Virus record (IMG/VR): IMGVR_UViG_3300045988_084091
Location: 1-37,038 of that record
DNA: 37,038 nucleotides
Source of the DNA: a virus
Reading direction: 5' to 3' (one strand)
Below the pieces are notes generated by a model that was not told where the DNA came from, searched no databases, and saw only the letters and a list, made by a program, of their open reading frames with translations. The position numbers and the translations under genes are program-made. Shown here in pieces: positions 125 to 36,183 of this stretch; the first letter of the stretch is position 1, and each line of letters begins with the position of its first letter.

Positions 125-156
125 AAGAGGAGCAGGAAATCAATCCTGCTCCTCTT
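125..156. terminator. Bidirectional stem-loop terminator between convergent genes
   Basis: Stem aagaggagcagg / cctgctcctctt (12 bp) with loop aaatcaat. A-rich upstream and tcgtgtttt downstream. Lies between the plus-strand 36-aa ORF and the minus-strand repressor gene. Confidence 0.7.
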
Positions 157-520
157 TCGTGTTTTCCGCGGTGATCTGCCGGGCAAAGTCCTCGATGTCG
201 GCCCAGCGCTCTTCCGGAAGCCGGGCCAGCGCCAACAGGAACCGCCGCCGGAAATTGTCGTCCTCGCCCTGCATGACGTCGCCGACAAAGCGCATGATCT
301 CCTTGTCGCGCGAGATCTGGACGAACATCTCACCCTCGCCGGTGCGCAGCCACGTTTCATTGACGTTGAATTCGCGGCAGATTAAGGCGGCTGCGGTATC
401 GGATGCGTTGCGGCCAATTTCATAATTGGCAATCGCGCCGCGTTTCACGCCGATCCTGTCCGCGAATTCTTGCTGTGTCAAGCCAAGCGCTTGCCGCAGC
501 TCTTTTATTCTGTTTCCCAT
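140..520 (-). CDS. XRE-family HTH transcriptional repressor (CI-like), 126 aa
   Basis: The internal ATG at 520 is preceded by AGGAGG (ttcacaaggaggtaaatgc ATG). The N-terminus MGNRIKELRQALGLTQQEFADRIGVKRGAIANYEIGRN is a classic XRE helix-turn-helix. Divergent from the early operon. Confidence 0.85.
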   Translation of the reverse strand: MGNRIKELRQALGLTQQEFADRIGVKRGAIANYEIGRNASDTAAALICREFNVNETWLRTGEGEMFVQISRDKEIMRFVGDVMQGEDDNFRRRFLLALARLPEERWADIEDFARQITAENTKEEQD

Positions 521-542
521 GCATTTACCTCCTTGTGAATCA

Positions 543-571
543 AGGATAGCACAGACGTTGCTATCCGTCAA
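543..571 (-). promoter_or_regulatory. Sigma70-like promoter of the repressor gene, with an inverted-repeat operator in the spacer
   Basis: The minus strand reads TTGACG-17 nt-TATCCT. The spacer holds the inverted repeat ggatagc(n9)gctatcc (544-566). Confidence 0.55.
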
Positions 572-600
572 CGAAAAAATGCAAAATAACACAAAAAGTC

Positions 601-629
601 TTGACAAATGTGTCTGCATTGATTATTAT
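601..629 (+). promoter_or_regulatory. Early (lytic) sigma70-like promoter
   Basis: TTGACA (601-606), a 17-nt spacer, then TATTAT (624-629). Back-to-back with the repressor promoter. Confidence 0.7.
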
Positions 630-878: not shown

Positions 879-922
879 TGGAACCAGAATGGAACCAATC
901 TGGAACCAGAATGGAACCACAG
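879..922. repeat. Four tandem 11-bp units (TGGAACCA core), iteron-like
   Basis: tggaaccagaa tggaaccaatc tggaaccagaa tggaaccacag. The 11-bp spacing equals one helical turn. Lies in an intergenic region. Confidence 0.8.
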
Positions 923-930
923 TATAGAGT

Positions 931-986
931 AGAAGAGGTTTAGTAAAGGCTTAGGAAAGACAAGAAGAGGTTTAGTTAAGGCTAGG
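931..986. repeat. Two copies of a ~25-bp direct repeat
   Basis: agaagaggtttagtaaaggcttagg (931-955) and agaagaggtttagttaaggctagg (963-986). Intergenic, followed by the GC palindrome gcgccgcggcgc. Confidence 0.75.
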
Positions 987-1551: not shown

Positions 1552-2619
1552 ATGAACGAAATCACAGTCACGTCGCAGCAGCAGCTTGACAATCTGCCGC
1601 ACGACTGTCATGGAATAATCTACATCAAGTTCGGCACGCCGTATGATAAGGCTATCGTAAGGCGGAAATATGATTTTGCCTCCGTCGTGGCGCGGGGGAA
1701 CAGCTACGTCGTGGCGTGGGGGAACAGCTCCGTCGAGGCGTTGGAGAACAGCTCCGTCGAGGCGTGGGGGAACAGCTCCGTCGTGGCGTTGGAGAACAGC
1801 TACGTCGTGGCGCGGGAGAACAGCTACGTCGTGGCGTGGGGGAACAGCTCCGTCGTGGCGTGGGAGAACAGCTCCGTCGAGGCGTTGGAGAACAGCTACG
1901 TCGTGGCGTGGGGGAACAGCTCCGTCGTGGCGTGGGGGAACAGCTCCGTCGTGGCGTGGGAGAACAGCTCCGTCGTGGCGCGGGGGAACAGCTACGTCGT
2001 GGCGTGGGGGAACAGCTCCGTCGTGGCGTTGGAGAACAGCTCCGTCGAGGCGTGGGGGAACAGCTCCGTCGTGGCGTTGGAGAACAGCTACGTCGTGGCG
2101 CGGGAGAACAGCTACGTCGTGGCGCGGGGGAACAGCCAAATCAATCAAAAGAGCGATGCATCTAAAATTAACGCATCCAGTAATGCGCGCGTTGTGCACG
2201 ACCCGCACACCATTGACGAATATGTCGATTTTTACGGCATTGAGAACAGCAACGGCAAAGCGAAACTGTTTAAAGCGGTGCGGAAGCACGACGGTGTGTA
2301 CCGCTCGAACTGGGATGCAGATTTTGTGTATACAATCGGGGAATCAGTTGCGGCAGACGGCTTTTGCGCTGACCCTAACGAAGATTGCGGGCGCGGTATC
2401 CATATGGCCTATCTCGACTGGTGTCTGGCATACGGAAACTGCTGGACTGATCTCGCAATCCTCGAAGTCGAAGCGGACATGAGCACAGTTGTTGTGCCGA
2501 AATGCGGCTCCGGCAAAGTTCGCGCCCCGTCTTGCAAAGTGATTCGGGAGGTTCCGCTGGAAGAATGCGGCTTGTACGGAAAGGCGCTGGCCAAGCGCAG
2601 AAACGGAGGGGCAGCATGA
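1552..2619 (+). CDS. Octapeptide-repeat (beta-solenoid-like) protein with a Cys/His-containing C-terminal globular domain, 355 aa
   Basis: ATG follows AAAGGGGA. Contains 19 in-frame units of A-[RWL]-[GE]-N-S-[YS]-V-[VE], then a non-repetitive C-terminus (DPNEDCGRGIHMAYLDWCLAYGNCW). Its stop overlaps the next start (ATGA). Confidence 0.8.
   Translation: MNEITVTSQQQLDNLPHDCHGIIYIKFGTPYDKAIVRRKYDFASVVARGNSYVVAWGNSSVEALENSSVEAWGNSSVVALENSYVVARENSYVVAWGNSSVVAWENSSVEALENSYVVAWGNSSVVAWGNSSVVAWENSSVVARGNSYVVAWGNSSVVALENSSVEAWGNSSVVALENSYVVARENSYVVARGNSQINQKSDASKINASSNARVVHDPHTIDEYVDFYGIENSNGKAKLFKAVRKHDGVYRSNWDADFVYTIGESVAADGFCADPNEDCGRGIHMAYLDWCLAYGNCWTDLAILEVEADMSTVVVPKCGSGKVRAPSCKVIREVPLEECGLYGKALAKRRNGGAA
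1678..2136 (+). repeat. 24-bp tandem repeat tract (19 full units plus a partial leading unit), inside the CDS
   Basis: Unit gcg[c/t][g/t]gg[g/a]gaacagct[a/c]cgtcg[t/a]g. Full units start at 1690. All six reading frames are open across the tract. Confidence 0.95.
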
Positions 2620-4303: not shown

Positions 4304-4771
4304 ATGATTATTCGCACAAGAACCGGCGACTGCATCGTTGCCGGGAGACTTTCCCGTGACGCAGAGTTTTCCAACGTCGGCTCGAAAAACACGCCGCTGA
4401 CGAAGTTTAGCATTCCTGCCCGAGACACCGTGCAGCCGGACGGCAGCAAGCAGACCGAATGGATCAACTGTGAGGTGTGGTATGAGGCCGCCATGAATGC
4501 CGCGCAGCTCAAAAAGGGTGATTCTGTCATCGTATGTGGGCAGCTCTCCACGCGCAGCTATACCACCCGCGACGGGGAGGAACGCAGCGAGGAGCGCCTG
4601 CGTGCAGACGCCTTTGTCAAAGCGTCCGTGCCGGTCTCTTCTGCCAGCGTGGAGCAGCTTGCCTCCGCCTATCCCGGCGTCGTGCGCGGCGTCGGAGTTG
4701 TCGCGGACGACTTCACGAATGAGCCGAAGTTTGAGGAACTGCCGGAGGATGAATCCGACCTTCCGTTTTGA
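4304..4771 (+). CDS. ssb: Single-stranded DNA-binding protein, 155 aa
   Basis: OB-fold-like N-terminal region and the typical acidic C-terminal tip EDESDLPF. ATG at 4304 follows AAAGGAAG. Confidence 0.85.
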   Translation: MIIRTRTGDCIVAGRLSRDAEFSNVGSKNTPLTKFSIPARDTVQPDGSKQTEWINCEVWYEAAMNAAQLKKGDSVIVCGQLSTRSYTTRDGEERSEERLRADAFVKASVPVSSASVEQLASAYPGVVRGVGVVADDFTNEPKFEELPEDESDLPF

Positions 4772-4783
4772 TCGGAGGCCGCC

Positions 4784-5515
4784 ATGGCAGAAAAGCGAAT
4801 GTTCGCGCGCTCGCTCATCGACAGTGACGCGTTTCTGGAGATGCCGCTCTCCGCGCAGGCGCTGTATTTCCACCTCAACATGCGCGCGGATGACGACGGG
4901 TTCATCAACAACCCGAAGCGCATCACGGACTATGTCGGCGCGGCGGCTGACGATCTGAAGCTGCTCCTTGCAAAGCGCTTTATCATCGTCTTTGATTCCG
5001 GCGTCATTGTCATCCGGCACTGGCGCATGCACAACACGCTCAAAAGTGACCGATACCATCCGACGAACTATCAGGAAGAGTTTGCAACACTCTGCCTAGA
5101 GGAAAACAAGGCATACTCCGAGCGACCGCAGACGACACCTGCCGCAGAACCGGCCAGAGTGGAAAAGCCAGCAGCGCGCCCGGCGCAAAAAGCCGCCGCA
5201 AAGCCTCCGGAAAAGAAACCCTATGGAGAAATGCACAACGTCATGCTCGCGGATGACGAGCTGGAAAAGCTCCAGCGAGATTACCCGAACGACTACGAAA
5301 CATATGTCGAGCGCCTGTCCCTGTACATCACCAGCAAAGGCGCGCGGTACAAATCCCACTACGCCGTCATCCGGCAGTGGCTTGCAAAAGACGGCGTGAA
5401 GGCAGAGAACGAGAAGCGCGCGCCGGTCTCCGGTAAGGACGACCTGGACAAAGTGGAGCGAATGCTCGCTGCCATGAAGGGGGGTGCGCAGGATGCCTAC
5501 CATGTTAGCCCTTGA
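4784..5515 (+). CDS. Phage replisome organizer / DnaD-like replication initiation protein, 243 aa
   Basis: The N-terminus MFARSLIDSDAFLEMPLSAQALYFHLNMRADDDGFINNPKRI matches the replisome-organizer N-terminal domain pattern. It is followed by a Pro/Ala linker and a helical C-terminal domain. Confidence 0.75.
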   Translation: MAEKRMFARSLIDSDAFLEMPLSAQALYFHLNMRADDDGFINNPKRITDYVGAAADDLKLLLAKRFIIVFDSGVIVIRHWRMHNTLKSDRYHPTNYQEEFATLCLEENKAYSERPQTTPAAEPARVEKPAARPAQKAAAKPPEKKPYGEMHNVMLADDELEKLQRDYPNDYETYVERLSLYITSKGARYKSHYAVIRQWLAKDGVKAENEKRAPVSGKDDLDKVERMLAAMKGGAQDAYHVSP

Positions 5516-5981
5516 CCCCGGCAACCGGGAAACCGGCTGGTGCATCGTCGATACGATCACCCGCGCACCGGTGCAGGGGGGAAAGGACGAGAACACACTC
5601 GTCTCCGTCATTGTGACCTGCGGCGCGTTCACCGTTGCCGCGATTGAGATCATCGAATCTTACGGCATGGCGGTCGGGCGCGACGTGTTTGAGACGTGCG
5701 AGTGGATCGGACGCTATAAGCAGCTACTCGACGACCGCGGCGTACCGTACCACATCGTCACGCGCAAAGAGGAAAAGCTCAATATCTGCGGCAGCTCTCG
5801 CGCGAACGATACCACGATCCGCCACGCGCTGATTGACCGCTTCGCGTCGCACGACTTCCGCAGCGGCAAGGGCACGAAAGCAAATCCAGACTTTTTCTAC
5901 GGCTTCCGCGCCGATCAGTGGAGCGCGTATGCCGTTGCAACGACCGCCCTCGACAGGGAAGAAAAGGAGATACTTATATGA
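5493..5981 (+). CDS. RuvC-like Holliday junction resolvase, 162 aa
   Basis: The N-terminal LALDPGNRETGWCIV carries the catalytic Asp signature. The size and position after replication genes fit. GTG 5484 and ATG 5502 are alternative starts. Confidence 0.6.
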   Translation: MPTMLALDPGNRETGWCIVDTITRAPVQGGKDENTLVSVIVTCGAFTVAAIEIIESYGMAVGRDVFETCEWIGRYKQLLDDRGVPYHIVTRKEEKLNICGSSRANDTTIRHALIDRFASHDFRSGKGTKANPDFFYGFRADQWSAYAVATTALDREEKEILI

Positions 5982-6205
5982 AAACTTATATGACGATCAA
6001 CCAAACAGTAAGAGAGACGGGTTTCTCTGAGGGTATGCTCCGCGCTCGACTCAAGCGCAACAAGCTACCCGGCTTCTATGCCGGATCCCGCTATTACATC
6101 AATGTCCCGCTCTTGATGGAGATGCTCGACGCGGAATGCCGGTTGAACGCATCCCTCGACCGGGCGGAAGAGGAGGGCGACTATGAGCGTCTATGTCAAC
6201 TTTGA
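5978..6205 (+). CDS. Excisionase/MerR-type HTH DNA-binding protein, 75 aa
   Basis: MTINQTVRETGFSEGMLRARLKRNKLPGFYAGSRYYI resembles the excisionase-family HTH. ATG follows AAAGGAG. Confidence 0.55.
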   Translation: MKTYMTINQTVRETGFSEGMLRARLKRNKLPGFYAGSRYYINVPLLMEMLDAECRLNASLDRAEEEGDYERLCQL

Positions 6206-6452
6206 CCACTTGATTGACTATCTCAGGTGCGTTCGCAAGAACAGGGGAGTCAATATTTCGCCATACATGGACAACGCTTTGCTTAATGTTCAGCAACTTT
6301 TGGAAATCGATGTGCACAACCCGATACTGTTTGATTATGTCGAAATCGGTGGCTGTGATGGTTGTTCGTGGAAGGGCTTACGGCATCAGAGGTGTTCGTG
6401 TTGCCGTAGAAATAGATTTTTGAAGGACGGATACACCAAGAAGGAGGGCTGA
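6183..6452 (+). CDS. Hypothetical protein, 89 aa (Cys-rich C-terminus)
   Basis: ATG follows GAGGAGGG. Ends ...KKEG* inside the junction sequence that is repeated downstream. Confidence 0.6.
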   Translation: MSVYVNFDHLIDYLRCVRKNRGVNISPYMDNALLNVQQLLEIDVHNPILFDYVEIGGCDGCSWKGLRHQRCSCCRRNRFLKDGYTKKEG

Positions 6453-7281: not shown

Positions 7282-7863
7282 ATGCGTAGAAAACCGCTCG
7301 CGCCGCTTACGCCGGAACAGCAGCAGCTCGCAGCGGACAACGAGCGTCTGATCTATCTGGCGATCCGTCGCTACGCACCGAACGAGGACGCCGATGAGCT
7401 GTATGGGTACGCTGCCGAGGGCTTGCTCAGAGCCGCGAGTACATACGATCCAACGCGCGGAAAGTTTTCTACGCACGCGATGTGGTGCATGCGCGGCGCG
7501 GTCGTCTTCAATCAGCGCTGCGCGAAACGGAAGAAGCGTTCAGGAAAACTGGTACTGCACATGGATGACGTTGACGCGGTTGACCCGAACGAAGAATATA
7601 ACGCGGAAATGTGCGGTGTCGCGCCGCTGAAAGACAGGCCGTGCCTGTCGCTGGACGAAACCGGCGCGGATGTTGAACGCTTTCTGCGGTCACTTCCTGC
7701 GCGCGATCGTGAACTCGTTCGTATGCGCATTGGCGGCGACACGCTCAAAGAAATTGGAGACACATTTGGAATCACAATTCAGGCAGCCAGCGCGCACATG
7801 AAGCGCATAGCAAATAAGTGGGAAGCATTTGAACTCTATGGGACACAAGAAAGGAAAAGATAA
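7282..7863 (+). CDS. Sigma-70 family RNA polymerase sigma factor (phage-encoded), 193 aa
   Basis: A region-2-like segment (ELYGYAAEGLLRAASTYDPTRGKFSTHAMWCMRGAV) and a region-4 HTH (LPARDRELVRMRIGGDTLKEIGDTFGITIQAASAHMKRI). ATG follows GGAGGG. Confidence 0.75.
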   Translation: MRRKPLAPLTPEQQQLAADNERLIYLAIRRYAPNEDADELYGYAAEGLLRAASTYDPTRGKFSTHAMWCMRGAVVFNQRCAKRKKRSGKLVLHMDDVDAVDPNEEYNAEMCGVAPLKDRPCLSLDETGADVERFLRSLPARDRELVRMRIGGDTLKEIGDTFGITIQAASAHMKRIANKWEAFELYGTQERKR

Positions 7864-29087: not shown

Positions 29088-30497
29088 CTAATAGCTGATA
29101 TATCCGGCAGACGGTGCGTCTCCGGTCATGAATTCCTCGTAGCCCTCCTGCGCGTCCTCGTCCTCGTAGATGATCTCTGACGGGTTCGCATCTCTTGCGT
29201 CCGCGCGCATTGTTCTCGATACGCAGTAGTAGCGCACGGAATCGACCGTGTGTGTAATCTCGTGCGGCTCTTTCGCACAGTCGTTCGGGTTGCGCTCGTC
29301 CGCCTGAATGTCCTCTAGGTCTCCGATCGTCCGTTCGCAGTTCTGGAAAAGCACGAGCCCCGGCTTTCCGTCCGGCATATTTGCGAGCGCTTCTTTCACT
29401 TGCAGGAAACCCTGCACGCGGTTGTTGCTCGCCCGCACGATGGGCACGCCGCACTGCATGAATACCTCTGCCATCGTCTTGCCGGTGTCCTTCTGGCGTG
29501 ACCAGATATCCGGCGGGGCAAAGGTAATCTCGATGTGCTCGTCCGGCATTGTCATGTCGAGGATCTGCTTTGCTGCATCCTGTACGATCAGCCCAGGCTG
29601 CACCAGCTCGCGGTACATATACGATCGTCCGTTTTCGTCCACCGCGTACCAGCCGACGGCGAGCATATCCAGACCGTAGTCGAGTGCCCTGTATCGCTTC
29701 CAGTGCTTTGGGATCTGGAACGGCTTGCAGGTGTGCGTCGCCTTGCTGAACTCCGGGAAATATGTGCCGCACAGCGCGTCCCAGTCGCCGTAGCGGTGCG
29801 CCTTGCGGATGTTCTCCGGCAATTGAGATAGCGCCTGAAGATAGCCCGGAGAGGATTCAAGCAGGTCTTTGTTGTCCTCGACCGTTGCGAAAATGAAGCT
29901 GTAGTCGTCCGGGTTCTCGTTCTCCTCCGGATTGTCGGAGTCTGTCTTGAAATTTCGGTCGATAAACAGGCGCTTGACCCATCTGTGCCCGACGCCGCCG
30001 GGGTTGCACGTCAGGTAAAAGCGCTTCGGGATCTCGTTGACGCCGCGCAGGCAGCCGCCGAGAAAGCGGAATTCGCGCTCTGTAAACTGCGTTGCCTCGT
30101 CCATGAAGATCCAGTCATATTCCTGGCCTTGGTATTCGCTCTCGGACGTGATGCCGCTCCAGTGGCCGAAATGGATGGTCGAGCCGTTCTGAAAGTACAG
30201 CGTGTGCAGTGTGCCGTTGTAGCTTGTCAGCTCCTGCGGCACCATCTTCAGAATCGGTTCGATGTGGTTCGACTGCAGCTCCGGGTATGTCTTTCGCACG
30301 ATGAGGATGCGGATGCCCGGCCATGTAAACGCGCCGCCTACTGCCTTGATGCGCACAGCGTGCGTCTTGCCGCCGCCTCGCGCGCCGCCGTAGGCTGTGT
30401 ACATCGTTCGGCTCTGGTAGAACAGAAGCTGCTTCTCGTTCGCGTGCCCCGGATCCCATGTGAAATTTGTCTGCGTGCTTCGCTTCTGCTTCGGCAT
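29088..30497 (-). CDS. terL: Terminase large subunit, 469 aa
   Basis: Walker A YGGARGGGKTH, Walker B DWIFMDEAT, and a C-terminal nuclease-type region. ATG follows ACGGAGGA. Confidence 0.9.
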   Translation of the reverse strand: MPKQKRSTQTNFTWDPGHANEKQLLFYQSRTMYTAYGGARGGGKTHAVRIKAVGGAFTWPGIRILIVRKTYPELQSNHIEPILKMVPQELTSYNGTLHTLYFQNGSTIHFGHWSGITSESEYQGQEYDWIFMDEATQFTEREFRFLGGCLRGVNEIPKRFYLTCNPGGVGHRWVKRLFIDRNFKTDSDNPEENENPDDYSFIFATVEDNKDLLESSPGYLQALSQLPENIRKAHRYGDWDALCGTYFPEFSKATHTCKPFQIPKHWKRYRALDYGLDMLAVGWYAVDENGRSYMYRELVQPGLIVQDAAKQILDMTMPDEHIEITFAPPDIWSRQKDTGKTMAEVFMQCGVPIVRASNNRVQGFLQVKEALANMPDGKPGLVLFQNCERTIGDLEDIQADERNPNDCAKEPHEITHTVDSVRYYCVSRTMRADARDANPSEIIYEDEDAQEGYEEFMTGDAPSAGYISY

Positions 30498-30587
30498 GGC
30501 ATCCTCCGTAAATGCAGAAACGGAGCCAACTGCATTCCGCAGCCAGCTCCGTTCAGCTCTTATGCCCGGCCGTTTCCGGGCACGTCG

Positions 30588-30734: not shown

Positions 30735-31526
30735 TCACATTGCAGCCCCGGCGTTTTTCCGCCACCCGTCAAGGTAAATGACAGGCGCGGCCTTGCTTGC
30801 CGGTTGATAGCCCATCCGCACACCGTAGCCGCCGCCGTAGTCCAGCGCCGCCGCGGTGTTAACAAACAATCGTTCAACCGGCTCCGCGCTCCTCGTAGAA
30901 GCGTTCGCCCGGAAGAAACAGTCCTTAAACACGGCAGGGGAGTGCGTGTGCCCGCAAACATAAACGTCTGCGTCAACAATCTGCGCATAGTCCGCAAGCC
31001 GGTTGATCTTGCCGCCAATCTTGCGCCCGCCACCGTTGCCGTGGTTGACGTAGATGGAATACGTCGTTTGCCGTCCCTCGCTCTTTCGCCGGGAGTTTTC
31101 ACCGAGTGATACGAATACGAGCGCTGCGTCCGGAGCGTACCGGTCGCCCGCGCCCAGCTCGTTTGCGATCAGCCATGTAATGTCGATGCCGTCTGCACGA
31201 TATGTCCGCTCTTCGTGGTTGCCGGGAACAGCGCACAGGATGCGGCCCTTGAGCGGGGCGAACGTCTTGTTTGCAAGCTGGATCTGCTCCATCGGGGACA
31301 ACTGCGTGCTGTAGATATCTCCGATGCTGTTTCGCGTCGCATTGTCGATCAGGTCGCCCGCAAGAATTGCATAGGCGTTATCCTTTGCCGCAATGTCCGC
31401 CACGCGCTTTTGCACGCCGCGAATATCGCAGTTCGGGTCGGAAAGATGTACGTCCGCAATGACGTGCACTTCGATTTCGTTTTGCTGCTTCGGCAGCTCC
31501 ACACGGATAACGTGCAAACGCTTCAC
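30735..31526 (-). CDS. Calcineurin-like metallophosphoesterase, 263 aa (GTG start)
   Basis: All signature blocks are present: DVHLSD, GDLID, GNHE, VNHGNGGG, GHTHSP. An in-frame stop 3 codons upstream fixes the start at GTG 31526. Confidence 0.8.
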   Translation of the reverse strand: MKRLHVIRVELPKQQNEIEVHVIADVHLSDPNCDIRGVQKRVADIAAKDNAYAILAGDLIDNATRNSIGDIYSTQLSPMEQIQLANKTFAPLKGRILCAVPGNHEERTYRADGIDITWLIANELGAGDRYAPDAALVFVSLGENSRRKSEGRQTTYSIYVNHGNGGGRKIGGKINRLADYAQIVDADVYVCGHTHSPAVFKDCFFRANASTRSAEPVERLFVNTAAALDYGGGYGVRMGYQPASKAAPVIYLDGWRKNAGAAM

Positions 31527-31739
31527 CTCATTCGTTCAAGACCACCGCTGCGAGCGCTCTTGCACAGCGCCCCAGCAAAAAAACGAAATAATCTACCAGA
31601 CACGGTTGTCGCGCGCATAGCTTATAAACCAATTCCGAGCAGCAGCTCAGCGCGCCCGCCTCCCGCTGCAGCAGGAAAGCGGCTTTCTGCCGGTTTTTCA
31701 CGCTCCGGTCAATCCGGTCGTCTGGTCTTGGCGGCAGCC

Positions 31740-31756
31740 CCCGGACTTGCACCGGG
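31740..31756 (-). other. Hairpin B with heptaloop UGCAAGU (minus strand)
   Basis: Plus strand cccgg-acttgca-ccggg. Nested inside a second helix, cggcagc/gctgccg. Confidence 0.6.
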
Positions 31757-31797
31757 CGCCCCTCTTGGAAAGCTGCCGTAGAAAGGGAAGCTGCGGC

Positions 31798-31816
31798 ATC
31801 CTGACTTGCACAGGAT
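31798..31816 (-). other. Hairpin A with the same heptaloop UGCAAGU (minus strand)
   Basis: Plus strand atcctg-acttgca-caggat. The stem sequence differs from hairpin B, while the loop plus closing pair (GUGCAAGUC) is identical. Confidence 0.6.
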
Positions 31817-32171
31817 TTCAGCGGAAAGGAGATGAAAGCGCTTAGGCCACTCGCCGCCGCAGCAGTGTTTACCGTCGCTTCCGACGCTTGATTCCCGGAT
31901 AGTGCCGGGTTCACGGTTGCTCCGTACCGTAATAGGTTTTTGCAAGGGAATAACAGGTGCAGTTGGGAAATCACTGATACACCGTCAACGGAAAATTTGT
32001 TGCTTCGAGTGTGGAAGAGATTGAAAGTTTCTGCTCTCAAGAACAGCTTCCGATTGACGCGAGGTTGACCTTTTTCCGGTACGGAGGGGCATCGTTCACA
32101 AACGTGAACAGCAAGCACTCAGCCGCAGCGCGTATCCCGCGCCCGCATTCGGCTTGTTGGATTAAGCATGT

Positions 32172-32561
32172 TTACTTGAAAGCGCTGTCGCCGCCGATCC
32201 CGTCTGTCTTGATCGTCAGCTCCTGCGCGTGAACGTCGATTACAGGCTTGTCGATGTAACCGCCGTTTTTCGGCTGCTTGAGCAGGAAGATGATTCCGCC
32301 GCTGCCCTTCGGGTTTTCAGCCACCATACGCGCATAGACCGCTTCCCGGTATGCAACCAGCTTCTTGAGCTGCTCTCCATATCCGTCATATTCCCCGCCT
32401 TCGTTTGCCTGCCATCGCGCGAGTGTGCGCGGCGCAATGCCGAGATACTTCATCAGCGCATAGTCGTCCATGTACTGTTTCCCGTCCTCGCACTGCATGA
32501 TGAACTCGTCGATCAGAACGCCAAGCTCTTCGGCAGTCTTGATTTTGCGCGGTCTTGCCAT
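32172..32561 (-). CDS. terS: Terminase small subunit (GP3_package-like), 129 aa
   Basis: MARPRKIKTAEELGVLIDEFIMQCEDGKQ...YALMKYLGIAPRTLARW...GGIIFLLKQPKNGGYIDK follows the typical small-terminase/DNA-packaging-protein pattern. First gene of the late operon. Confidence 0.8.
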   Translation of the reverse strand: MARPRKIKTAEELGVLIDEFIMQCEDGKQYMDDYALMKYLGIAPRTLARWQANEGGEYDGYGEQLKKLVAYREAVYARMVAENPKGSGGIIFLLKQPKNGGYIDKPVIDVHAQELTIKTDGIGGDSAFK

Positions 32562-32581
32562 AGAATCACCCCATCACTTAT

Positions 32582-32590
32582 AGTATAGCA
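32582..32590 (-). promoter_or_regulatory. Extended -10 element (TGcTATACT) upstream of terS
   Basis: The minus strand reads tgatgcTATACTataagtgatggggtgattctATG. The -35 is poor (ttagtt), and the phage sigma factor may use a different element. Confidence 0.4.
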
Positions 32591-32668
32591 TCAAACGTCG
32601 TAAAAACTAAATGCACATCACCAGATAATGTATGGAATACCTTTGGAAAGACGTGAAAAACGCAGTGG

Positions 32669-32710
32669 GTTGAACTTGCGTTGAACGTGCGCTGAACTTG
32701 CGTTGAACAT
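32669..32710. repeat. Four tandem 11-bp units (GTTGAACTTGC type), 110-150 bp upstream of terS
   Basis: gttgaacttgc gttgaacgtgc gctgaacttgc gttgaacat. The units share the ACTTGC core with the two hairpin loops downstream of terS. Confidence 0.8.
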
Positions 32711-32800
32711 CTAGCGGGACGATGTTTGGCGGGAAGTCTCAAAAGGCTGTGTGTCGTAACGCATGGGCCGTCGCCTGAGAGCCGCCCCGTTTTTCCGGCA

Positions 32801-32824
32801 CCCCGGGGGGAGGGGGGGGAGGGG
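32801..32824. repeat. Homopolymer cluster CCCC-G6-A-G8-A-G4
   Basis: ccccggggggaggggggggagggg. G-quadruplex-capable and prone to slippage. Lies in ORF-free DNA. Confidence 0.9.
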
Positions 32825-33033
32825 TACACCCGGAAACGCTGAACGAAACAACGCCCATATACCAGCGCGCGCCGTGGATGATTGCCCGCGCGGCCAGGCA
32901 CCTAATTGCCCTACTGCATGGCGCTGCATAGACAGCGCATGAGCTGCATAAACTACCAGCTTTACAGAACGGAAACACCATGGAAACTATGAGTTATTCG
33001 GCAAAATGTAGGTTATGCCGAATTTACAAATAG

Positions 33034-33054
33034 ATAAACCCATTGAAAACACTA
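33034..33054. repeat. Copy 1 of a dispersed 21-bp repeat (ataaaCccattgaaaacacta)
   Basis: 20 of 21 bases identical to 35122-35142, same orientation. Both copies are followed 8-9 nt later by gaaact. Confidence 0.8.
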
Positions 33055-33300
33055 CGTTCTTGCGAAACTGCATGAATATGCACAGCATACAGCACCGAAA
33101 ACGGCCGTGAAAAGTGCATCAGTATGCACCAGATCACCGCCACAAAACCAGCCGGCACCGGACCCGACCGGGCCCGCAATTTTTTTATCCGATGCCACAA
33201 CGCGCATTTTGTATGAGATAATGGGATCATACCATCATCATATCATCGCATCATTGCGCAGCATCACCGGCACACAGCCAGGACAACACCCGCGCAAAGA

Positions 33301-33321
33301 GGGGGGGGACTATAGGGGGGG
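33301..33321. repeat. G8-ACTATA-G7 homopolymer pair
   Basis: ggggggggactataggggggg, at the edge of the AT-rich palindrome array. Confidence 0.9.
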
Positions 33322-33333
33322 TAATTTACATAG

Positions 33334-33385
33334 CTAAGTAATAACTAAGTAATAGCTATTACACAGCTATGTCATAGCTATTACA
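33334..33385. repeat. AT-rich array of phased repeats and palindromes (putative protein-binding array)
   Basis: ctaagtaata occurs twice with an 11-bp period. atagctattaca occurs twice with a 22-bp period. Perfect palindromes gtaatagctattac (33349-33362) and agctatgtcatagct (33365-33379). About 100-150 bp upstream of the RHH-gene promoter. Confidence 0.75.
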
Positions 33386-33480
33386 TAACTATTCCATACC
33401 CCGCGAGACATTCAACGACCAAAGAAAAGGAAAGTATAGAGGGAGAGCGCACCCGCGCAAAAAATTTTTGCAAAAAGGGC

Positions 33481-33509
33481 TTGACATACTGCATCGAGCA
33501 TGCTATCTT
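33481..33509 (+). promoter_or_regulatory. Sigma70-like promoter of the RHH/J-domain cassette
   Basis: TTGACA-17 nt-TATCTT, preceded by the A/T tract gcaaaaaatttttgcaaaaa (UP-like). An AGGAG RBS and the ATG at 33543 follow. Confidence 0.7.
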
Positions 33510-33542
33510 GTAAATGCAGCCGGGGAACGGCAGCGAAAGGAG

Positions 33543-33734
33543 ATGATACACGCGGCAAGAAAGACAACCACAAGCACGGAAGTAAAACGCAGGTATAACG
33601 ACCGCGTGTACTGCAAAGTGCAAGCGGAGCTGCCACGCGACACGGTAACGGCATTTAAGGCCAAGTGCAAAACCAAAGGCGTATCACAAGCGAGCGTTTT
33701 ACTTGAAGCAATCGAAAACTTTTTAAGGGACTGA
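33543..33734 (+). CDS. Ribbon-helix-helix (CopG/Arc-like) protein, 63 aa
   Basis: A basic N-terminal strand region (RRYNDRVYCKVQAELPRD) is followed by two helices (TVTAFKAKCKTKGVSQASVLLEAIENFL). This is the RHH pattern. Confidence 0.55.
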   Translation: MIHAARKTTTSTEVKRRYNDRVYCKVQAELPRDTVTAFKAKCKTKGVSQASVLLEAIENFLRD

Positions 33735-34914: not shown

Positions 34915-34938
34915 GTTAGCATTTTAGTTAGCATTTTG
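34915..34938. repeat. attP arm-type repeat block, left (2.5 x TTAGCATTTT)
   Basis: gttagcattttagttagcattttg is identical to 35158-35181, followed by a degenerate third copy, ttagcg. Confidence 0.8.
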
Positions 34939-35041
34939 TTAGCGAAATGCGTTTGCATTATGCGTAAAATAATCGTAAATCCGCGACGTTTTTCGCACCG
35001 CAAAGCTTTCTGAAAGCACCACAAAGCATTGATAAACAAAG

Positions 35042-35082: not shown

Positions 35083-35113
35083 TGGTGGAGATGGGGGGAG
35101 TTGAACCCCCGCG
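35083..35113 (-). other. 3' fragment of a tRNA gene (T-arm, acceptor 3' strand, ACCA): probable attP core
   Basis: The minus strand reads GCGGGGG-UUCAACU-CCCCC-CAUCUCC-ACCA. That is a 5-bp T-stem, a canonical 7-nt T-loop, 7-nt acceptor strand, discriminator and CCA. No matching 5' acceptor strand (GGAGAUG), D-arm or anticodon arm lies upstream. Confidence 0.65.
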
Positions 35114-35121
35114 ATATTGCT

Positions 35122-35142
35122 ATAAAACCATTGAAAACACTA
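35122..35142. repeat. Copy 2 of the dispersed 21-bp repeat (ataaaAccattgaaaacacta)
   Basis: See 33034-33054. Lies between the tRNA fragment and the right arm repeats. Confidence 0.8.
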
Positions 35143-35157
35143 GATTTTATGAAACTA

Positions 35158-35181
35158 GTTAGCATTTTAGTTAGCATTTTG
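35158..35181. repeat. attP arm-type repeat block, right (2 x TTAGCATTTT), overlapping the integrase stop
   Basis: 24 bp identical to 34915-34938, 243 bp away, in direct orientation. Confidence 0.8.
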
Positions 35182-36183
35182 CGAATAGAACGCACGAATT
35201 GCATCTACCTGATTTGCTATATCCGCGTCCGCAAGGTGGGTGTAAATCTCGCGCGGGATGCGGTCCGTTTTCCATCCGCCGAGGCGCATGGTAATCAACA
35301 TCGGTACGCCCAAATGGTAGCACAAAGACGCGAAGCTATGCCGCAATCCGTGCACGCCAACCAGCGGCAGACCGCGCGTCTCGCATACGCGGTTGACCTG
35401 CCGGTAGATCGTATTCGGCGCGACTGTTGCGACCGGCCCGGTATCATCCGCGTGCAGATCCACAAGCTCCTTCAGCCGCGGTATCATAATCGGCACGGTG
35501 CGCCGTGACGTTGCGTTCTTGTTTGTCTTCTTGCGCACCTTCTTGCCGTCCTTGTCGTACACCAGTGCCCCAGCTACGGTAATTTCTTGCCCGCGTAGCT
35601 GCGCCCAGTCCAGCGCGCATATCTCCGACCTGCGCAGGCCGTGCAGCGCAAGCAACGCAGGAATTTCGCCGTCAGCCCCGCGTATCGCGTCCACAAACAC
35701 AGTGATCTGGTCGTATGTCAGATAGACGTGCTCTTTCTTCTGCCTGCCCGGAAGCGATACCTTTGGCCGGTCCTGCCCAGCTTCTTTGATCGCTGCCGCC
35801 GCAAGATTCCATGCGTTAAACAGCGTCTTCGCGGAAACCGTCTTCGCCTCTTCGTTTATCATTCTCTGGTACGGTATCTGCCGGATGTCGCGCCCCATGT
35901 ATGCCTTAAATCGGTTATTCAGAATCACATAATACCCCCGAATCGTCTCCGGGGATTTCACGTTCTCTCGCACCTGTATGTACTGCTCGATCGCGCTGCG
36001 CAGCGTGACACACGCGCTTGCCGGTTGCGGCCTCTTCCCGTTGCGATAGTCCGCCTTGATCTTTTCAGCCTGCCTGATGCACTCCGTCCGCGTTGCCGCC
36101 GACACCGGCACGCTCTCTCCGCCGAGGCGCATCTGAATAAACCACGTCCCGCTTTTTAACTTGCGCGGCTCAGGTACTTTCAT
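35167..36183 (-). CDS. int: Tyrosine recombinase / phage integrase, 338 aa
   Basis: SAM-like N-terminal domain. The catalytic region includes LLALHGLRRSEI and HGLRHSFASLCYHLGVPMLITMRLGGWKTDRIPREIYTHL (R, H-x-x-R, Y). ATG follows GAGGAGG. Confidence 0.9.
   Translation of the reverse strand: MKVPEPRKLKSGTWFIQMRLGGESVPVSAATRTECIRQAEKIKADYRNGKRPQPASACVTLRSAIEQYIQVRENVKSPETIRGYYVILNNRFKAYMGRDIRQIPYQRMINEEAKTVSAKTLFNAWNLAAAAIKEAGQDRPKVSLPGRQKKEHVYLTYDQITVFVDAIRGADGEIPALLALHGLRRSEICALDWAQLRGQEITVAGALVYDKDGKKVRKKTNKNATSRRTVPIMIPRLKELVDLHADDTGPVATVAPNTIYRQVNRVCETRGLPLVGVHGLRHSFASLCYHLGVPMLITMRLGGWKTDRIPREIYTHLADADIANQVDAIRAFYSQNAN

What the first reader, a model, noticed from the sequence alone, without database searches (positions are those of the whole stretch)
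32562..33542. About 1 kb of ORF-free DNA upstream of terS, packed with phased repeats, long G-tracts and perfect palindromes
No ORF in this region has a credible RBS or composition. Instead it holds:
- four 11-bp tandem units (32669-32710);
- CCCC-G6-A-G8-A-G4 (32801-32824), which is G-quadruplex-capable and slippage-prone;
- a 7-bp-stem hairpin (32996-33023);
- degenerate CAGCATCACCGNCAC-like repeats (about 33081, 33129 and 33258) and CATCA runs (33225-33265);
- G8-ACTATA-G7 (33301-33321);
- an AT-rich island (33322-33395) with 11- and 22-bp phased repeats and two perfect palindromes of 14-15 bp.

Such density of helically phased sites in a phage that otherwise wastes almost no sequence suggests a cis-acting hub. 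Candidates are cos/pac, a replication origin or partition-like site, the operator array of the adjacent RHH protein, or a non-coding RNA locus. The G8/G7 tracts could act as phase-variable spacers.
Basis: partly seen in the sequence, partly recalled or inferred. Interest (0 to 1): 0.65.

Follow-up and report, generated by a model that had tools for sequence, protein, structure and literature searches.

The report
Non-coding control hub upstream of terS
The 1 kb before this gut phage's DNA-packaging genes is real non-coding DNA made of separate protein-binding modules, and one of them, two equal runs of G around ACTATA, recurs next to packaging genes in many unrelated phages and may be an undescribed packaging-type signal.

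Summary
Window 32562-33542 is ORF-free DNA between the divergent late operon (terS first, minus strand) and an RHH/J-domain operon (plus strand) in a circularly assembled temperate phage that integrates into tRNA-Lys.

Substitutions in about 70 relatives show no codon periodicity. No Rfam family or conserved RNA fold was found. The region is a mosaic:
- a conserved terS RBS and promoter-like block;
- a hypervariable array of 11-bp units (1.5-6 copies);
- a 414-bp core with short invariant blocks, a hypermutable polypurine G-tract and two TGCATN4ATGCA palindromes;
- G8-ACTATA-G7 followed by (T/C)AGCTA boxes every 11 bp (4-10 boxes), the least stable duplex in the genome;
- the RHH promoter.

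The RHH operator is the promoter spacer: it co-varies perfectly with four RHH beta-strand alleles. The AT island does not, so it is not the RHH operator.

G(6-8)-AYTATA-G(6-8) occurs in at least 120 IMG/VR contigs (55 families), against 1 for a matched control. Its run lengths are almost always equal, and it lies next to terS/terL more often than chance predicts.

Best reading: a cis-acting DNA hub whose centrepiece is a packaging-type signal. Function is inferred, not shown.

The parts
32562..32625 (-). Block next to terS. It holds the RBS (GGGGTGA on the minus strand) and overlapping back-to-back -10-like hexamers: TATAGT on + at 32579-32584, and TGcTATACT on - at 32582-32590.
   Evidence: 98-91% conserved in the window's clade and 80-95% in the clade whose terS is 84% identical. 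Promoter scan. Promoter function is inferred.
32626..32716 (.). Hypervariable segment containing the 11-bp units GTTGAACTTGC (32669-32708).
   Evidence: 83-248 nt long in relatives, with 1.5-6 units. Some relatives carry AGTAACTTGC units instead. TRF.
32717..33130 (.). Non-coding core with short invariant blocks: TGGCGGGAAGTCTCA (32727-32741), GTTTTTCCG, ACCCGGAAACG and CCAGCGCGCGCCGTGGATGATTG (32862-32884).
   Evidence: 79% identical to clade 2. Variable sites show no codon periodicity, 65/65/67. Variable-site density is 0.48, against about 0.55 at synonymous sites. Block map.
32791..32837 (.). Inverted repeat TTTTTCCGG...CCGGAAA enclosing the polypurine mirror tract CCCC-G6-A-G8-A-G4 (32801-32824).
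   Evidence: At least 17 length or sequence variants among 34 unique relatives, and two pairs that differ only here. Five assemblies break before, inside or just after it.
32996..33023 (.). Conserved hairpin or palindrome, ATTCGGCA-N12-TGCCGAAT.
   Evidence: Arms are invariant while the loop varies. L016 keeps pairing with a different inner stem. The alifold z-score is about -4 on both strands.
33040..33054 (+). 15-mer CCATTGAAAACACTA, repeated exactly at 35128-35142 beside the attP core.
   Evidence: It is the only exact repeat longer than 12 nt shared between the region and the rest of the genome. Context.
33069..33128 (.). Two perfect palindromes: TGCATGAATATGCA (33069-33082) and TGCATCAGTATGCA (33115-33128), 46 bp apart.
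   Evidence: They are the only perfect TGCATN4ATGCA sites in the 37 kb. They are conserved in both clades whatever the RHH allele.
33131..33290 (.). Variable spacer holding a conserved T7 run (33180-33186) and 11-bp CATACCATCAT units (33226-33254).
   Evidence: 2-6 units in relatives, and none in clade 2.
33301..33321 (+). G8-ACTATA-G7, a member of a widespread G(6-8)-AYTATA-G(6-8) motif.
   Evidence: At least 120 IMG/VR contigs carry it, against 1 for a matched control. Run lengths are symmetric. It is adjacent to terminase genes in unrelated phages.
33322..33398 (.). AT island made of six (T/C)A(G/A)CTA boxes exactly 11 bp apart. They form 22-bp dyad units, including the 14-bp palindrome at 33349-33362.
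   Evidence: 4-10 boxes in relatives, independent of the RHH allele. It is the least stable duplex of the genome at window sizes of 40, 70 and 100 bp.
33457..33542 (+). RHH promoter. It comprises the palindrome GCAAAAA-A-TTTTTGC (33457-33471), the -35 TTGACA (33481-33486), the spacer/operator (33487-33503), the -10 TATCTT (33504-33509) and the RBS AAAGGAGA.
   Evidence: Promoter scan scores 10/12 with TG. The spacer co-varies with four RHH beta-strand alleles in 66 loci with no exception, while the -35, the -10 and most of the 5'UTR stay constant.

Best explanation
The region is a non-coding, DNA-level control hub between two divergent transcription units. It is built from independent protein-binding modules.

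Shown by comparison:
1. It is not coding, and it is not a conserved structured RNA.
2. The RHH protein's operator is the 17-nt spacer of its own sigma-70-type promoter (33487-33503).
3. The 11-bp arrays change copy number freely.
4. The first G tract is hypermutable.
5. G8-ACTATA-G7 belongs to a motif class found in many unrelated phages, with equal-length G runs, placed next to terS/terL more often than chance predicts.

Inferred:
- The unit G8-ACTATA-G7 plus the phased AGCT-box island (33301-33398) is the site where a packaging-type nucleoprotein complex assembles. The two equal G runs around an A/T hexamer are recognised as duplex DNA or as a G-hairpin/quadruplex. The adjoining island, the easiest DNA in the genome to melt, supplies phased binding sites or an unwinding region.
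- The TGCATN4ATGCA pair and the invariant blocks of the core would be further sites for terminase or accessory proteins.
- The late promoter and the terS leader lie in the conserved 60 bp next to terS. The variable 11-bp array upstream would be an activator-binding or spacing element.
- The TerL and portal types suggest headful packaging, so the site would act like a pac site, where a packaging series starts, rather than giving fixed cohesive ends.
For: - Non-coding.
- No RNA family or conserved fold.
- RHH operator assigned by allele swap.
- Island independent of the RHH allele.
- Motif frequency at least 120 against 1 for the control. AYTATA is the only recurrent core between G7 runs.
- Symmetric runs in 109 of 118 loci, and in 29 of 32 unique sequences of the window's own family.
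- The commonest PHROG families among the ORFs nearest one side of the motif (110 loci) are all terminase: TerL phrog_38 in 21 members and phrog_2 in 14; TerS phrog_2538 in 12 and phrog_24579 in 8; HNH in 4. One member can match several of these families. On the other side TerL appears in 3 of 98.
- At family level, 7 of the 16 families that have a terminase gene within 4 kb have the motif within 300 nt of the terS/terL module (P = 8e-5).
- The motif occurs in both orientations upstream of terS and also downstream of T7-type terL, which argues against a simple directional promoter.
- The island is the global minimum of duplex stability.
- P22-type portal and Terminase_3/6N TerL. Circular assembly.
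- By gene order, terS has no co-directional upstream gene, so the late promoter must lie in this region.
- Precedents: SPP1 pac overlaps the late promoters, the RBS and the start of gene 1 (PMC6316719). Herpesvirus pac1 is a T-rich element flanked by G-rich runs and is able to form a quadruplex (PMC13595911, PMC13386867).
Against: - No virion ends, binding data or transcripts are available.
- In the window the motif is 740 bp from terS. In other phages it is a median of 54 nt away.
- 39 of the 55 motif families showed no terminase gene within the DNA held, although the spans were short and my detection was limited.
- Contig ends near the motif (10 of 118) and the adapter junctions at L093 and L170 are weak evidence. 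G runs break assemblies anyway, and an adapter also sits at an arbitrary break in L061.
- P22-type TerS proteins usually recognise a pac site inside their own gene (my own knowledge).
- The core as a whole evolves almost as fast as synonymous sites.
- In a cultured T7-like relative, the place of the motif is taken by a T7-type promoter-like sequence, so a transcription role remains possible.
Confidence: 0.4

Rival explanations
1. Purely transcriptional hub. G-run/TATAGT/G-run (read on the C strand, CCCCCCC-TATAGT-CCCCCCCC) is a -10-only late promoter clamped by G+C runs and used with the phage's ECF-like sigma factor (7282-7863). The 740-nt leader, the palindromes and the 11-bp arrays are activator, repressor and pausing sites.
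For: - The phage encodes a sigma-70/ECF-type factor.
- terS is the first gene of the late operon.
- On the C strand the core reads TATAAT or TATAGT, and in 21 loci it lies 2-71 nt upstream of a terS ORF in that orientation.
- A T7-type promoter-like sequence occupies the same place in Prochlorococcus phage P-SCSP2.
- A conserved extended -10 lies next to terS.
Against: - The motif lies upstream of terminase genes in both orientations. In T7-like contigs it would point antisense into terL or sit after the last late gene.
- No conserved -35 or ECF-type -35/-10 pair exists in the region.
- It is single-copy in each locus, unlike a general phage promoter.
- Equal run lengths on both sides have no obvious promoter rationale.
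Confidence: 0.22
2. Origin of replication of the iteron-plus-unwinding-element type, like SPP1 oriR. The phased AGCT boxes are initiator sites, the island is the unwinding element, the G runs clamp it, and the RHH promoter supplies transcriptional activation.
For: - The island is the least stable duplex in the genome.
- It has 4-10 phased 11-bp boxes forming 22-bp dyad units.
- No direct repeats exist in or around the DnaD-like replisome-organiser gene.
- SPP1 oriR lies in a long intergenic region of the late module, 13 kb from its initiator gene, beside moron genes (PMC6316719).
- A J-domain protein is encoded next door.
Against: - The boxes do not recur near the replication genes, unlike the SPP1 oriL/oriR pair.
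- Another iteron-like array (TGGAACCAGAA x3.7 at 879-919) lies at the start of the early operon and is an equally good candidate.
- In other phages the flank of the motif is not especially AT-rich (0.58 against 0.55).
- The terminase link is not explained by an origin.
Confidence: 0.13
3. Mostly neutral spacer. The DNA is kept by recent common ancestry. Its repeats and G tracts are by-products of slippage, and only the two gene-proximal promoters are functional.
For: - Variable-site density in the core is 0.48, close to about 0.55 at synonymous sites.
- Arrays vary freely in copy number, and some are absent in clade 2.
- The elaborate region is missing in the relative whose terS is 40% identical.
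Against: - Several blocks of 11-23 bp are nearly invariant in about 70 sequences across two clades.
- The G-run motif recurs in 55 unrelated families with a constrained form.
- A 37-kb phage with gaps of a few bases between most genes keeps about 1 kb here in every relative.
Confidence: 0.12
4. Non-coding RNA locus: one or more small RNAs or a structured leader are made from the conserved core.
For: - A sigma-70-like promoter on the + strand (TTGCCA-18-TATAGT, 32555-32584) points into the region.
- A + strand fold of 32717-32840 is predicted in most relatives, and a few substitutions keep G-U pairs.
- The hairpin at 32996-33023 is conserved.
Against: - No Rfam family matches, even at E up to 5.
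- Alignment-fold z-scores are weak and the same on both strands where present.
- The helices are broken, without compensation, in clade 2.
- The substitutions that are seen are transitions that keep pairing about one time in four by chance.
- Conservation comes as short scattered blocks.
Confidence: 0.05

Closest known systems
Herpesvirus pac1 cleavage/packaging signal
   Same: Both have an A/T-rich core of a few bases flanked on each side by G runs on the same strand, capable of forming a quadruplex. Both are linked to terminase-driven packaging in the same virus realm (PMC13595911, PMC13386867).
   Different: The core here is AYTATA rather than a T run. No pac2 partner was identified. No link to genome ends has been shown. 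The hosts and genome forms differ. The resemblance is by sequence form only.
SPP1 pac (pacL-pacC-pacR) and P1 pac (phased hexamers)
   Same: These are packaging-start sites at or just upstream of terS, overlapping the late promoters and the RBS, with repeated TerS-binding boxes (PMC6316719). P1 pac uses clustered palindromic hexamers (my own knowledge).
   Different: The candidate unit lies 740 bp from terS. The boxes are unrelated in sequence. TerS binding and the cleavage position are unknown.
Iteron origins (lambda ori, SPP1 oriL/oriR)
   Same: Both have direct or dyad repeats at helical phase next to the most AT-rich DNA. SPP1 oriR lies in a long intergenic region of the late module with moron genes (PMC6316719).
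   Different: No matching repeats occur in or near the replisome-organiser gene. No initiator is known.
RHH autoregulators (Arc/Mnt, CopG, ParG, omega, ParR-parC)
   Same: A small RHH protein with a basic N-terminal tail. Its best PDB match is ParG 1p94 at E = 0.2, which is not significant. Its operator lies inside its own promoter.
   Different: The nearby 11-bp box array, which looks like ParR-parC iterons, does not follow RHH specificity. No partition ATPase is present.
Simple-sequence contingency loci (phase-variable homopolymer tracts)
   Same: The first G tract differs in length between otherwise identical relatives.
   Different: It is neither in a promoter spacer nor in an ORF. The second pair of G runs is length-constrained, not variable.

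Membership tests
cos site of the lambda/HK97 type | Fixed staggered nicks that give the virion ends | not testable with these tools
   No reads or virion DNA are available. The contig is circular, with a 119-nt overlap. Contig breaks at the first G tract are imprecise.
cos site of the lambda/HK97 type | Terminase and portal of a cos-packaging class, often with an HNH partner | tested here: not met
   The portal is P22-type. TerL matches Terminase_3/Terminase_6N. TerS weakly matches GP3_package. There is no HNH gene; a metallophosphoesterase lies between terS and terL.
Headful pac site (SPP1/P22/P1 type) | Terminase and portal of a headful class | tested here: met
   Pfam P22_portal at 2.8e-19, and Terminase_3/6N. 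The assembly is circular. This is class assignment by family only.
Headful pac site (SPP1/P22/P1 type) | A site at or next to terS that is bound by TerS and where packaging series start | not testable with these tools
   There is only indirect support: the G-run motif is adjacent to terS/terL in 7 independent families. In the window it is 740 bp away.
Herpesvirus pac1-like signal | An A/T-rich core flanked by G runs | tested here: met
   G8-ACTATA-G7. Relatives carry 5/5 to 8/8 forms with the AYTATA core.
Herpesvirus pac1-like signal | Lies at a fixed distance from the genome terminus and is needed for cleavage | tested here: inconclusive
   10 of 118 contigs end within 150 nt of the motif, and there are two adapter junctions. 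G runs break assemblies in any case.
Iteron-type replication origin | Phased repeats next to an AT-rich unwinding element | tested here: met
Iteron-type replication origin | The same repeats at or within the initiator gene, or initiator binding | tested here: not met
   No direct repeats in 4700-6300. The boxes are confined to the island. Binding is not testable.
RHH operator array (ParR-parC, omega, ParG type) | The array sequence follows the DNA-reading beta strand of the RHH protein | tested here: not met
   The island keeps the same boxes under alleles A-D. The promoter spacer does follow the allele, in 66 of 66 loci.
Phase-variable contingency tract | The tract lies in a promoter spacer or an ORF, so that its length switches expression | tested here: not met
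   The tracts lie outside the -35/-10 of both identified promoters and outside any ORF.
Phase-variable contingency tract | The length differs between near-identical genomes | tested here: met
   Met for 32801-32824 only: the pairs L002/L004 and L022/L023 differ only there. G8-ACTATA-G7 is 7/7 in 22 of 32 unique sequences.
Known RNA family (Rfam 15) | A match to a covariance model | tested here: not met
   Nothing reaches gathering score in the region. The best E-value is 1.8.
attP | A core identical to the host tRNA 3' end, flanked by arm repeats next to the integrase gene | tested here: not met
   attP is at about 35083-35125, with GTTAGCATTTT arm repeats. Prophages abut tRNA-Lys(UUU) there.

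The most novel reading that the evidence does not exclude
G(5-8)-AYTATA-G(5-8), with its two G runs kept equal in length, is an undescribed and widespread cis-element of tailed phages. It marks where terminase starts or processes packaging. It would be a prokaryotic counterpart of the herpesvirus pac1 signal, acting through a G-hairpin or quadruplex (or the C-strand i-motif) rather than through plain duplex recognition. In this phage it is joined to a phased box array that forms the easiest-melting DNA in the genome.
Probability: 0.25. Interest if true: 0.85.

Novelty: new variant of a known kind. Interest (0 to 1): 0.6.

Why it matters
Packaging signals are known for only a handful of model phages. 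They decide genome ends, transduction and the hijacking of phages by satellites. A short motif that can be found by sequence alone, that recurs next to terminase genes in dozens of unrelated uncultured phages, and that resembles herpesvirus pac1 would give a testable handle on packaging initiation in gut and environmental phages. It would also bear on the shared ancestry of phage and herpesvirus packaging.

Two practical points follow. The allele-swap logic used here located an RHH operator without any experiment. And the first G tract is a recurrent breakpoint in assemblies of this phage family.

Tried and rejected
- Rfam at gathering and at permissive thresholds found nothing in the region. 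tRNA scan was empty.
- DNA similarity to INPHARED phages and to PLSDB plasmids: no match.
- Sliding alignment folds on both strands gave signal only at palindromic DNA and one hairpin. A multi-branch + strand fold of 32717-32840 was rejected because its helices are broken in clade 2 and the supporting changes are weak.
- ECF-type -35/-10 search: no conserved pair.
- Shared boxes between the region and the CI/cro operators or the replication genes: none.
- An 18-nt inverted repeat bracketing 32701-33417 was judged compatible with chance (own estimate).
- Contig ends as evidence for cos were rejected for the first G tract, because the ends fall before, inside and after it, and one carries an adapter at an arbitrary place.
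- PDB sequence searches for TerL, TerS and RHH were uninformative.
- The relative whose terS is 40% identical (L056-L058) has an unrelated 500-bp upstream region.
- The J-domain protein's relatives in cultured phages gave no context clue.
- A one-sided polarity rule for the motif relative to terminase genes held at the level of loci but failed at the level of families: 7 left, 8 right.
- A full-text search for the motif sequence returned only T7-promoter primers.
- L091, a distant family sharing the J-domain module, also has about 1 kb of ORF-free G-rich DNA beside the motif, but its neighbouring genes could not be named.
Full report
CONTEXT

The window is a circular assembly: its first 119 nt repeat at its end. 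It is a temperate phage of about 36.9 kb. Gene families give the following map.
- A CI-like repressor at 140-619 (minus strand).
- Early genes on the plus strand: an Erf-like annealing protein, SSB, a DnaD-like replisome organiser at 4784-5515, a RusA-like resolvase and an ECF-like sigma factor at 7282-7863.
- The whole late module on the minus strand, from 32561 down to 8632. It begins with a small terminase-like gene (terS, 32172-32561). A metallophosphoesterase, TerL (29088-30497) and a P22-type portal follow.
- To the right of the region of interest, on the plus strand: a 63-aa RHH protein (33543-33734), a J-domain protein and a 162-aa protein.
- After those come attP and a tyrosine integrase (35167-36183, minus strand).

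attP is identified by a tRNA 3'-end fragment at about 35083-35125, flanked by GTTAGCATTTT arm repeats. In two metagenome contigs the prophage ends exactly in a tRNA-Lys(UUU) gene. So the region is the divergent intergenic space between the late operon and a prophage-end operon, and it is not attP.

THE OBSERVATION

Two small corrections apply.
- Only one perfect 14-bp palindrome lies in the island (33349-33362). The 7+1+7 palindrome GCAAAAA-A-TTTTTGC is at 33457-33471, beside the RHH promoter.
- The third 'CAGCATCACC' copy is weak.

The density of features is not chance.
- All G runs of seven or more in the 37 kb lie in this 1 kb.
- 9 of the 31 tandem-repeat rows fall here.
- The island 33322-33391 is the least stable duplex in the whole genome at window sizes of 40, 70 and 100 bp.

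NOT CODING, NOT A RECOGNISABLE RNA

I collected relatives in several ways:
- 26 IMG/VR loci through terS;
- a second clade with 84% identical terS;
- 25 gut metagenome contigs through the palindrome pair;
- one GTDB bin.

Variable sites in real genes pile up at third codon positions: terS 17/11/73, phosphoesterase 19/12/140, J-domain 27/25/100. In the 414-bp core they fall 65/65/67. No ORF in the region hits a PHROG family.

Rfam finds nothing in the region at gathering score or at E up to 5. Sliding alignment folds give signal only at palindromic DNA and at one hairpin, and equally on both strands. A multi-branch fold of the + strand around 32717-32840 appears in most close relatives, but its helices are broken without compensation in the second clade.

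The core has 0.48 variable sites per base, against about 0.55 at synonymous positions. Constraint is therefore concentrated in short blocks of 8-23 bp that are nearly invariant in about 70 sequences. This is the pattern of protein-binding sites, not of an RNA gene.

ANATOMY

1. 32562-32625. This block is conserved in both clades. It holds the terS RBS and two overlapping, oppositely oriented -10-like hexamers.
2. 32626-32716. This segment is hypervariable, 83-248 nt long in relatives. It carries 1.5-6 copies of the 11-bp unit GTTGAACTTGC; some genomes carry AGTAACTTGC instead.
3. 32717-33130. The core is 79% identical between the clades. It holds the TTTTTCCGG...CCGGAAA inverted repeat around the polypurine tract, the invariant block CCAGCGCGCGCCGTGGATGATTG, a cluster of CTGCAT, the hairpin at 32996-33023, a 15-mer that recurs exactly beside the attP core, and the only two perfect TGCATN4ATGCA palindromes in the genome.
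4. 33131-33290. This is a variable spacer with a conserved T7 run and 2-6 copies of an 11-bp CATACCATCAT unit.
5. 33301-33398. G8-ACTATA-G7 is followed directly by (T/C)AGCTA boxes every 11 bp. There are six boxes here and 4-10 in relatives.
6. 33457-33542. The RHH promoter is TTGACA-17-TATCTT with a good RBS.

THE RHH OPERATOR

The relatives carry four RHH alleles that differ in the DNA-reading beta strand: VYCKVQAEL, VYGRIYLQL, HYTRLTVVL and NYSRVNIYL. In 66 loci each allele goes with its own promoter-spacer sequence, without exception. The spacers are TACTGCATCGAGTATGC, TGGTAACGCAAGTATGC, TACGTTTGCAAGTATGC and TACTGGCGACAGTATGC or a close variant. Meanwhile the -35, the -10 and, between alleles A and B, the 5'UTR stay the same.

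This fine-scale mosaic places the operator in the spacer (33487-33503). That is an inference from co-variation. The AT island keeps the same boxes under all four alleles, so it is not the RHH operator array. The ParR-parC analogy fails its defining test.

THE G TRACTS

The first tract (32801-32824) is hypermutable. There are at least 17 variants among 34 unique sequences, and two pairs of otherwise identical sequences differ only in a G-run length. Five independent assemblies end before it, inside it or just after it. That looks like assembly failure at a difficult and possibly heterogeneous tract, not a precise terminus. The tract is not placed where its length could switch an identified promoter or an ORF.

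The second element behaves in the opposite way. Its two runs are 7/7 in 22 of 32 unique family members, 6/6 in four, 5/5 in the second clade (which also has a second copy at 6/6), and unequal in only three. The window's 8/7 is one of the three.

THE MOTIF IS WIDESPREAD

A composition-matched control with the core reversed, GGGGGG-ATATYA-GGGGGG, found one contig. In a scan for G7-N6-G7, AYTATA was the only recurrent core apart from plain poly-G artefacts at contig ends.

The 118 new loci fall into 55 families with unrelated flanks. They come from many samples and from contigs of 4-100 kb. Run lengths are equal in 109 of 118: 6/6 in 61 and 7/7 in 47.

The nearest ORF on the 5' side of the G strand is dominated by terminase families. 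Among 110 such ORFs, TerL phrog_38 matches 21 members and phrog_2 matches 14. TerS phrog_2538 matches 12 and phrog_24579 matches 8. HNH endonuclease families match 4. The other side is heterogeneous, with TerL in 3 of 98.

After collapsing loci to families, 16 of 55 have a detectable terminase gene within 4 kb. In 7 of those 16, the motif lies within 300 nt of the terS/terL module. About one would be expected if the position were uniform (P = 8e-5).

Three arrangements occur.
- The C strand reads toward terS then terL, with a median gap of 54 nt.
- The G strand reads toward terS then terL.
- In T7-like podoviruses, the motif sits 20-50 nt after the terL stop.

In the cultured relative Prochlorococcus phage P-SCSP2, the place after terL holds a T7-type promoter-like GGACACTATAGGAGA. 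The motif is single-copy per locus. A full-text search for the sequence returned only T7-promoter primers, so I found no description of it.

INTERPRETATION

A motif that sits beside terminase genes in either orientation, and also after the last late gene of T7-like genomes, is hard to read as a directional promoter for terS. It is easier to read as a DNA-level site tied to packaging.

Equal G runs around a short A/T loop are what a G-hairpin needs if it pairs into a quadruplex. That point rests on my own knowledge of G4T4G4-type structures. [quoted passage not shown] These are resemblances, not tests.

In this phage the motif is 740 bp from terS, and the TerL and portal classes point to headful packaging. 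I therefore propose a pac-like role, a start site for packaging series, for the unit 33301-33398. The palindrome pair and the invariant core blocks would be accessory sites. By gene order the late promoter must lie in the region, and most likely it lies in the conserved 60 bp next to terS.

SPP1 offers two precedents. Its pac overlaps the late promoters and the start of terS. It also has an origin (oriR), made of direct repeats plus an AT-rich unwinding element, in a long intergenic stretch of the late module beside moron genes (PMC6316719). The origin reading remains a serious rival, because the island is the easiest DNA in the genome to melt and the replication genes carry no repeats of their own. 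However, the boxes do not recur near the initiator gene, and an origin would not explain the terminase link.

WHAT IS SHOWN AND WHAT IS INFERRED

Shown by computation:
- the features and their statistics;
- absence of coding;
- absence of any known RNA family;
- the link between RHH allele and promoter spacer;
- copy-number and tract variation;
- the frequency, symmetry and gene neighbourhood of the motif.

Inferred: every function.

Not available: virion ends, transcripts and binding data.

VERDICT

Noticed in passing
window 31527-32171 (especially 31600-31954): A second ORF-free gap of 645 bp lies inside the late operon, between terS and the metallophosphoesterase. Variable sites show no codon periodicity (23/29/22), yet their density is only 0.21, as low as in coding DNA, so it is strongly constrained non-coding sequence. 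It has twin hairpins with the same loop (CCTGTGCAAGTCAGG and CCCGGTGCAAGTCCGGG). There is no Rfam hit and no thermodynamic signal (z = -0.27). Relatives carry in-frame-sized indels at 31537-31776.
   Followed up: partly
window 30539-30586 (minus strand): An Rfam gut-2 RNA motif (RF02990, 48.6 bits against a gathering score of 39.8) lies between the metallophosphoesterase gene and terL.
   Followed up: no
window 30735-31526 (minus strand): A calcineurin-like metallophosphoesterase (PHROG 'DNA repair exonuclease', SbcD/Mre11-like) is encoded between terS and terL. In cos phages an HNH nuclease often sits in that position.
   Followed up: no
window 1680-2136: A 24-bp unit repeated 19 times (90% matches) lies inside a 355-aa early ORF (1552-2619). 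Several relatives' contigs appear to break there.
   Followed up: no
window 879-959: Another helically phased array, TGGAACCAGAA x3.7 followed by AGGCTTAGGAA x2.2, lies between the cro-like gene and the early operon and is followed by a G+C-rich palindrome. It is an alternative origin or operator candidate.
   Followed up: no
window 34915-34943, 35083-35125, 35156-35180: attP consists of arm-type repeats GTTAGCATTTT (3 + 2 copies) around a core that is the 3' end of tRNA-Lys(UUU). Prophage junctions in L074 and L076 confirm it.
   Followed up: yes
window 33040-33054 and 35128-35142: The exact 15-mer CCATTGAAAACACTA is shared by the conserved core and the DNA next to the attP core. It is also kept in the clade that uses a serine recombinase instead of the tyrosine integrase.
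   Followed up: partly
L049-L054 (clade with 84% identical terS): This clade has the same architecture, but with a serine recombinase in place of the tyrosine integrase, an extra 44-aa gene before the RHH gene, and a 200-bp insertion carrying a second copy of the motif (G6-ACTATA-G6).
   Followed up: partly
L091 2100-3190: A distant phage family that shares the J-domain and 162-aa proteins also has the motif (G7-ACTATA-G6), placed right after a small RHH-like ORF. It is followed by about 1 kb of ORF-free DNA rich in G runs and short repeats.
   Followed up: partly
L084, L088, L090, L099, L159: In one family the motif lies inside a long ORF for a replication-type protein, where it would read GGTIGG within a low-complexity stretch. 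The motif is therefore not always intergenic.
   Followed up: no
L061, L093, L170: Sequencing adapters (Nextera or TruSeq) are left at the ends of public contigs, next to G-rich tracts.
   Followed up: no
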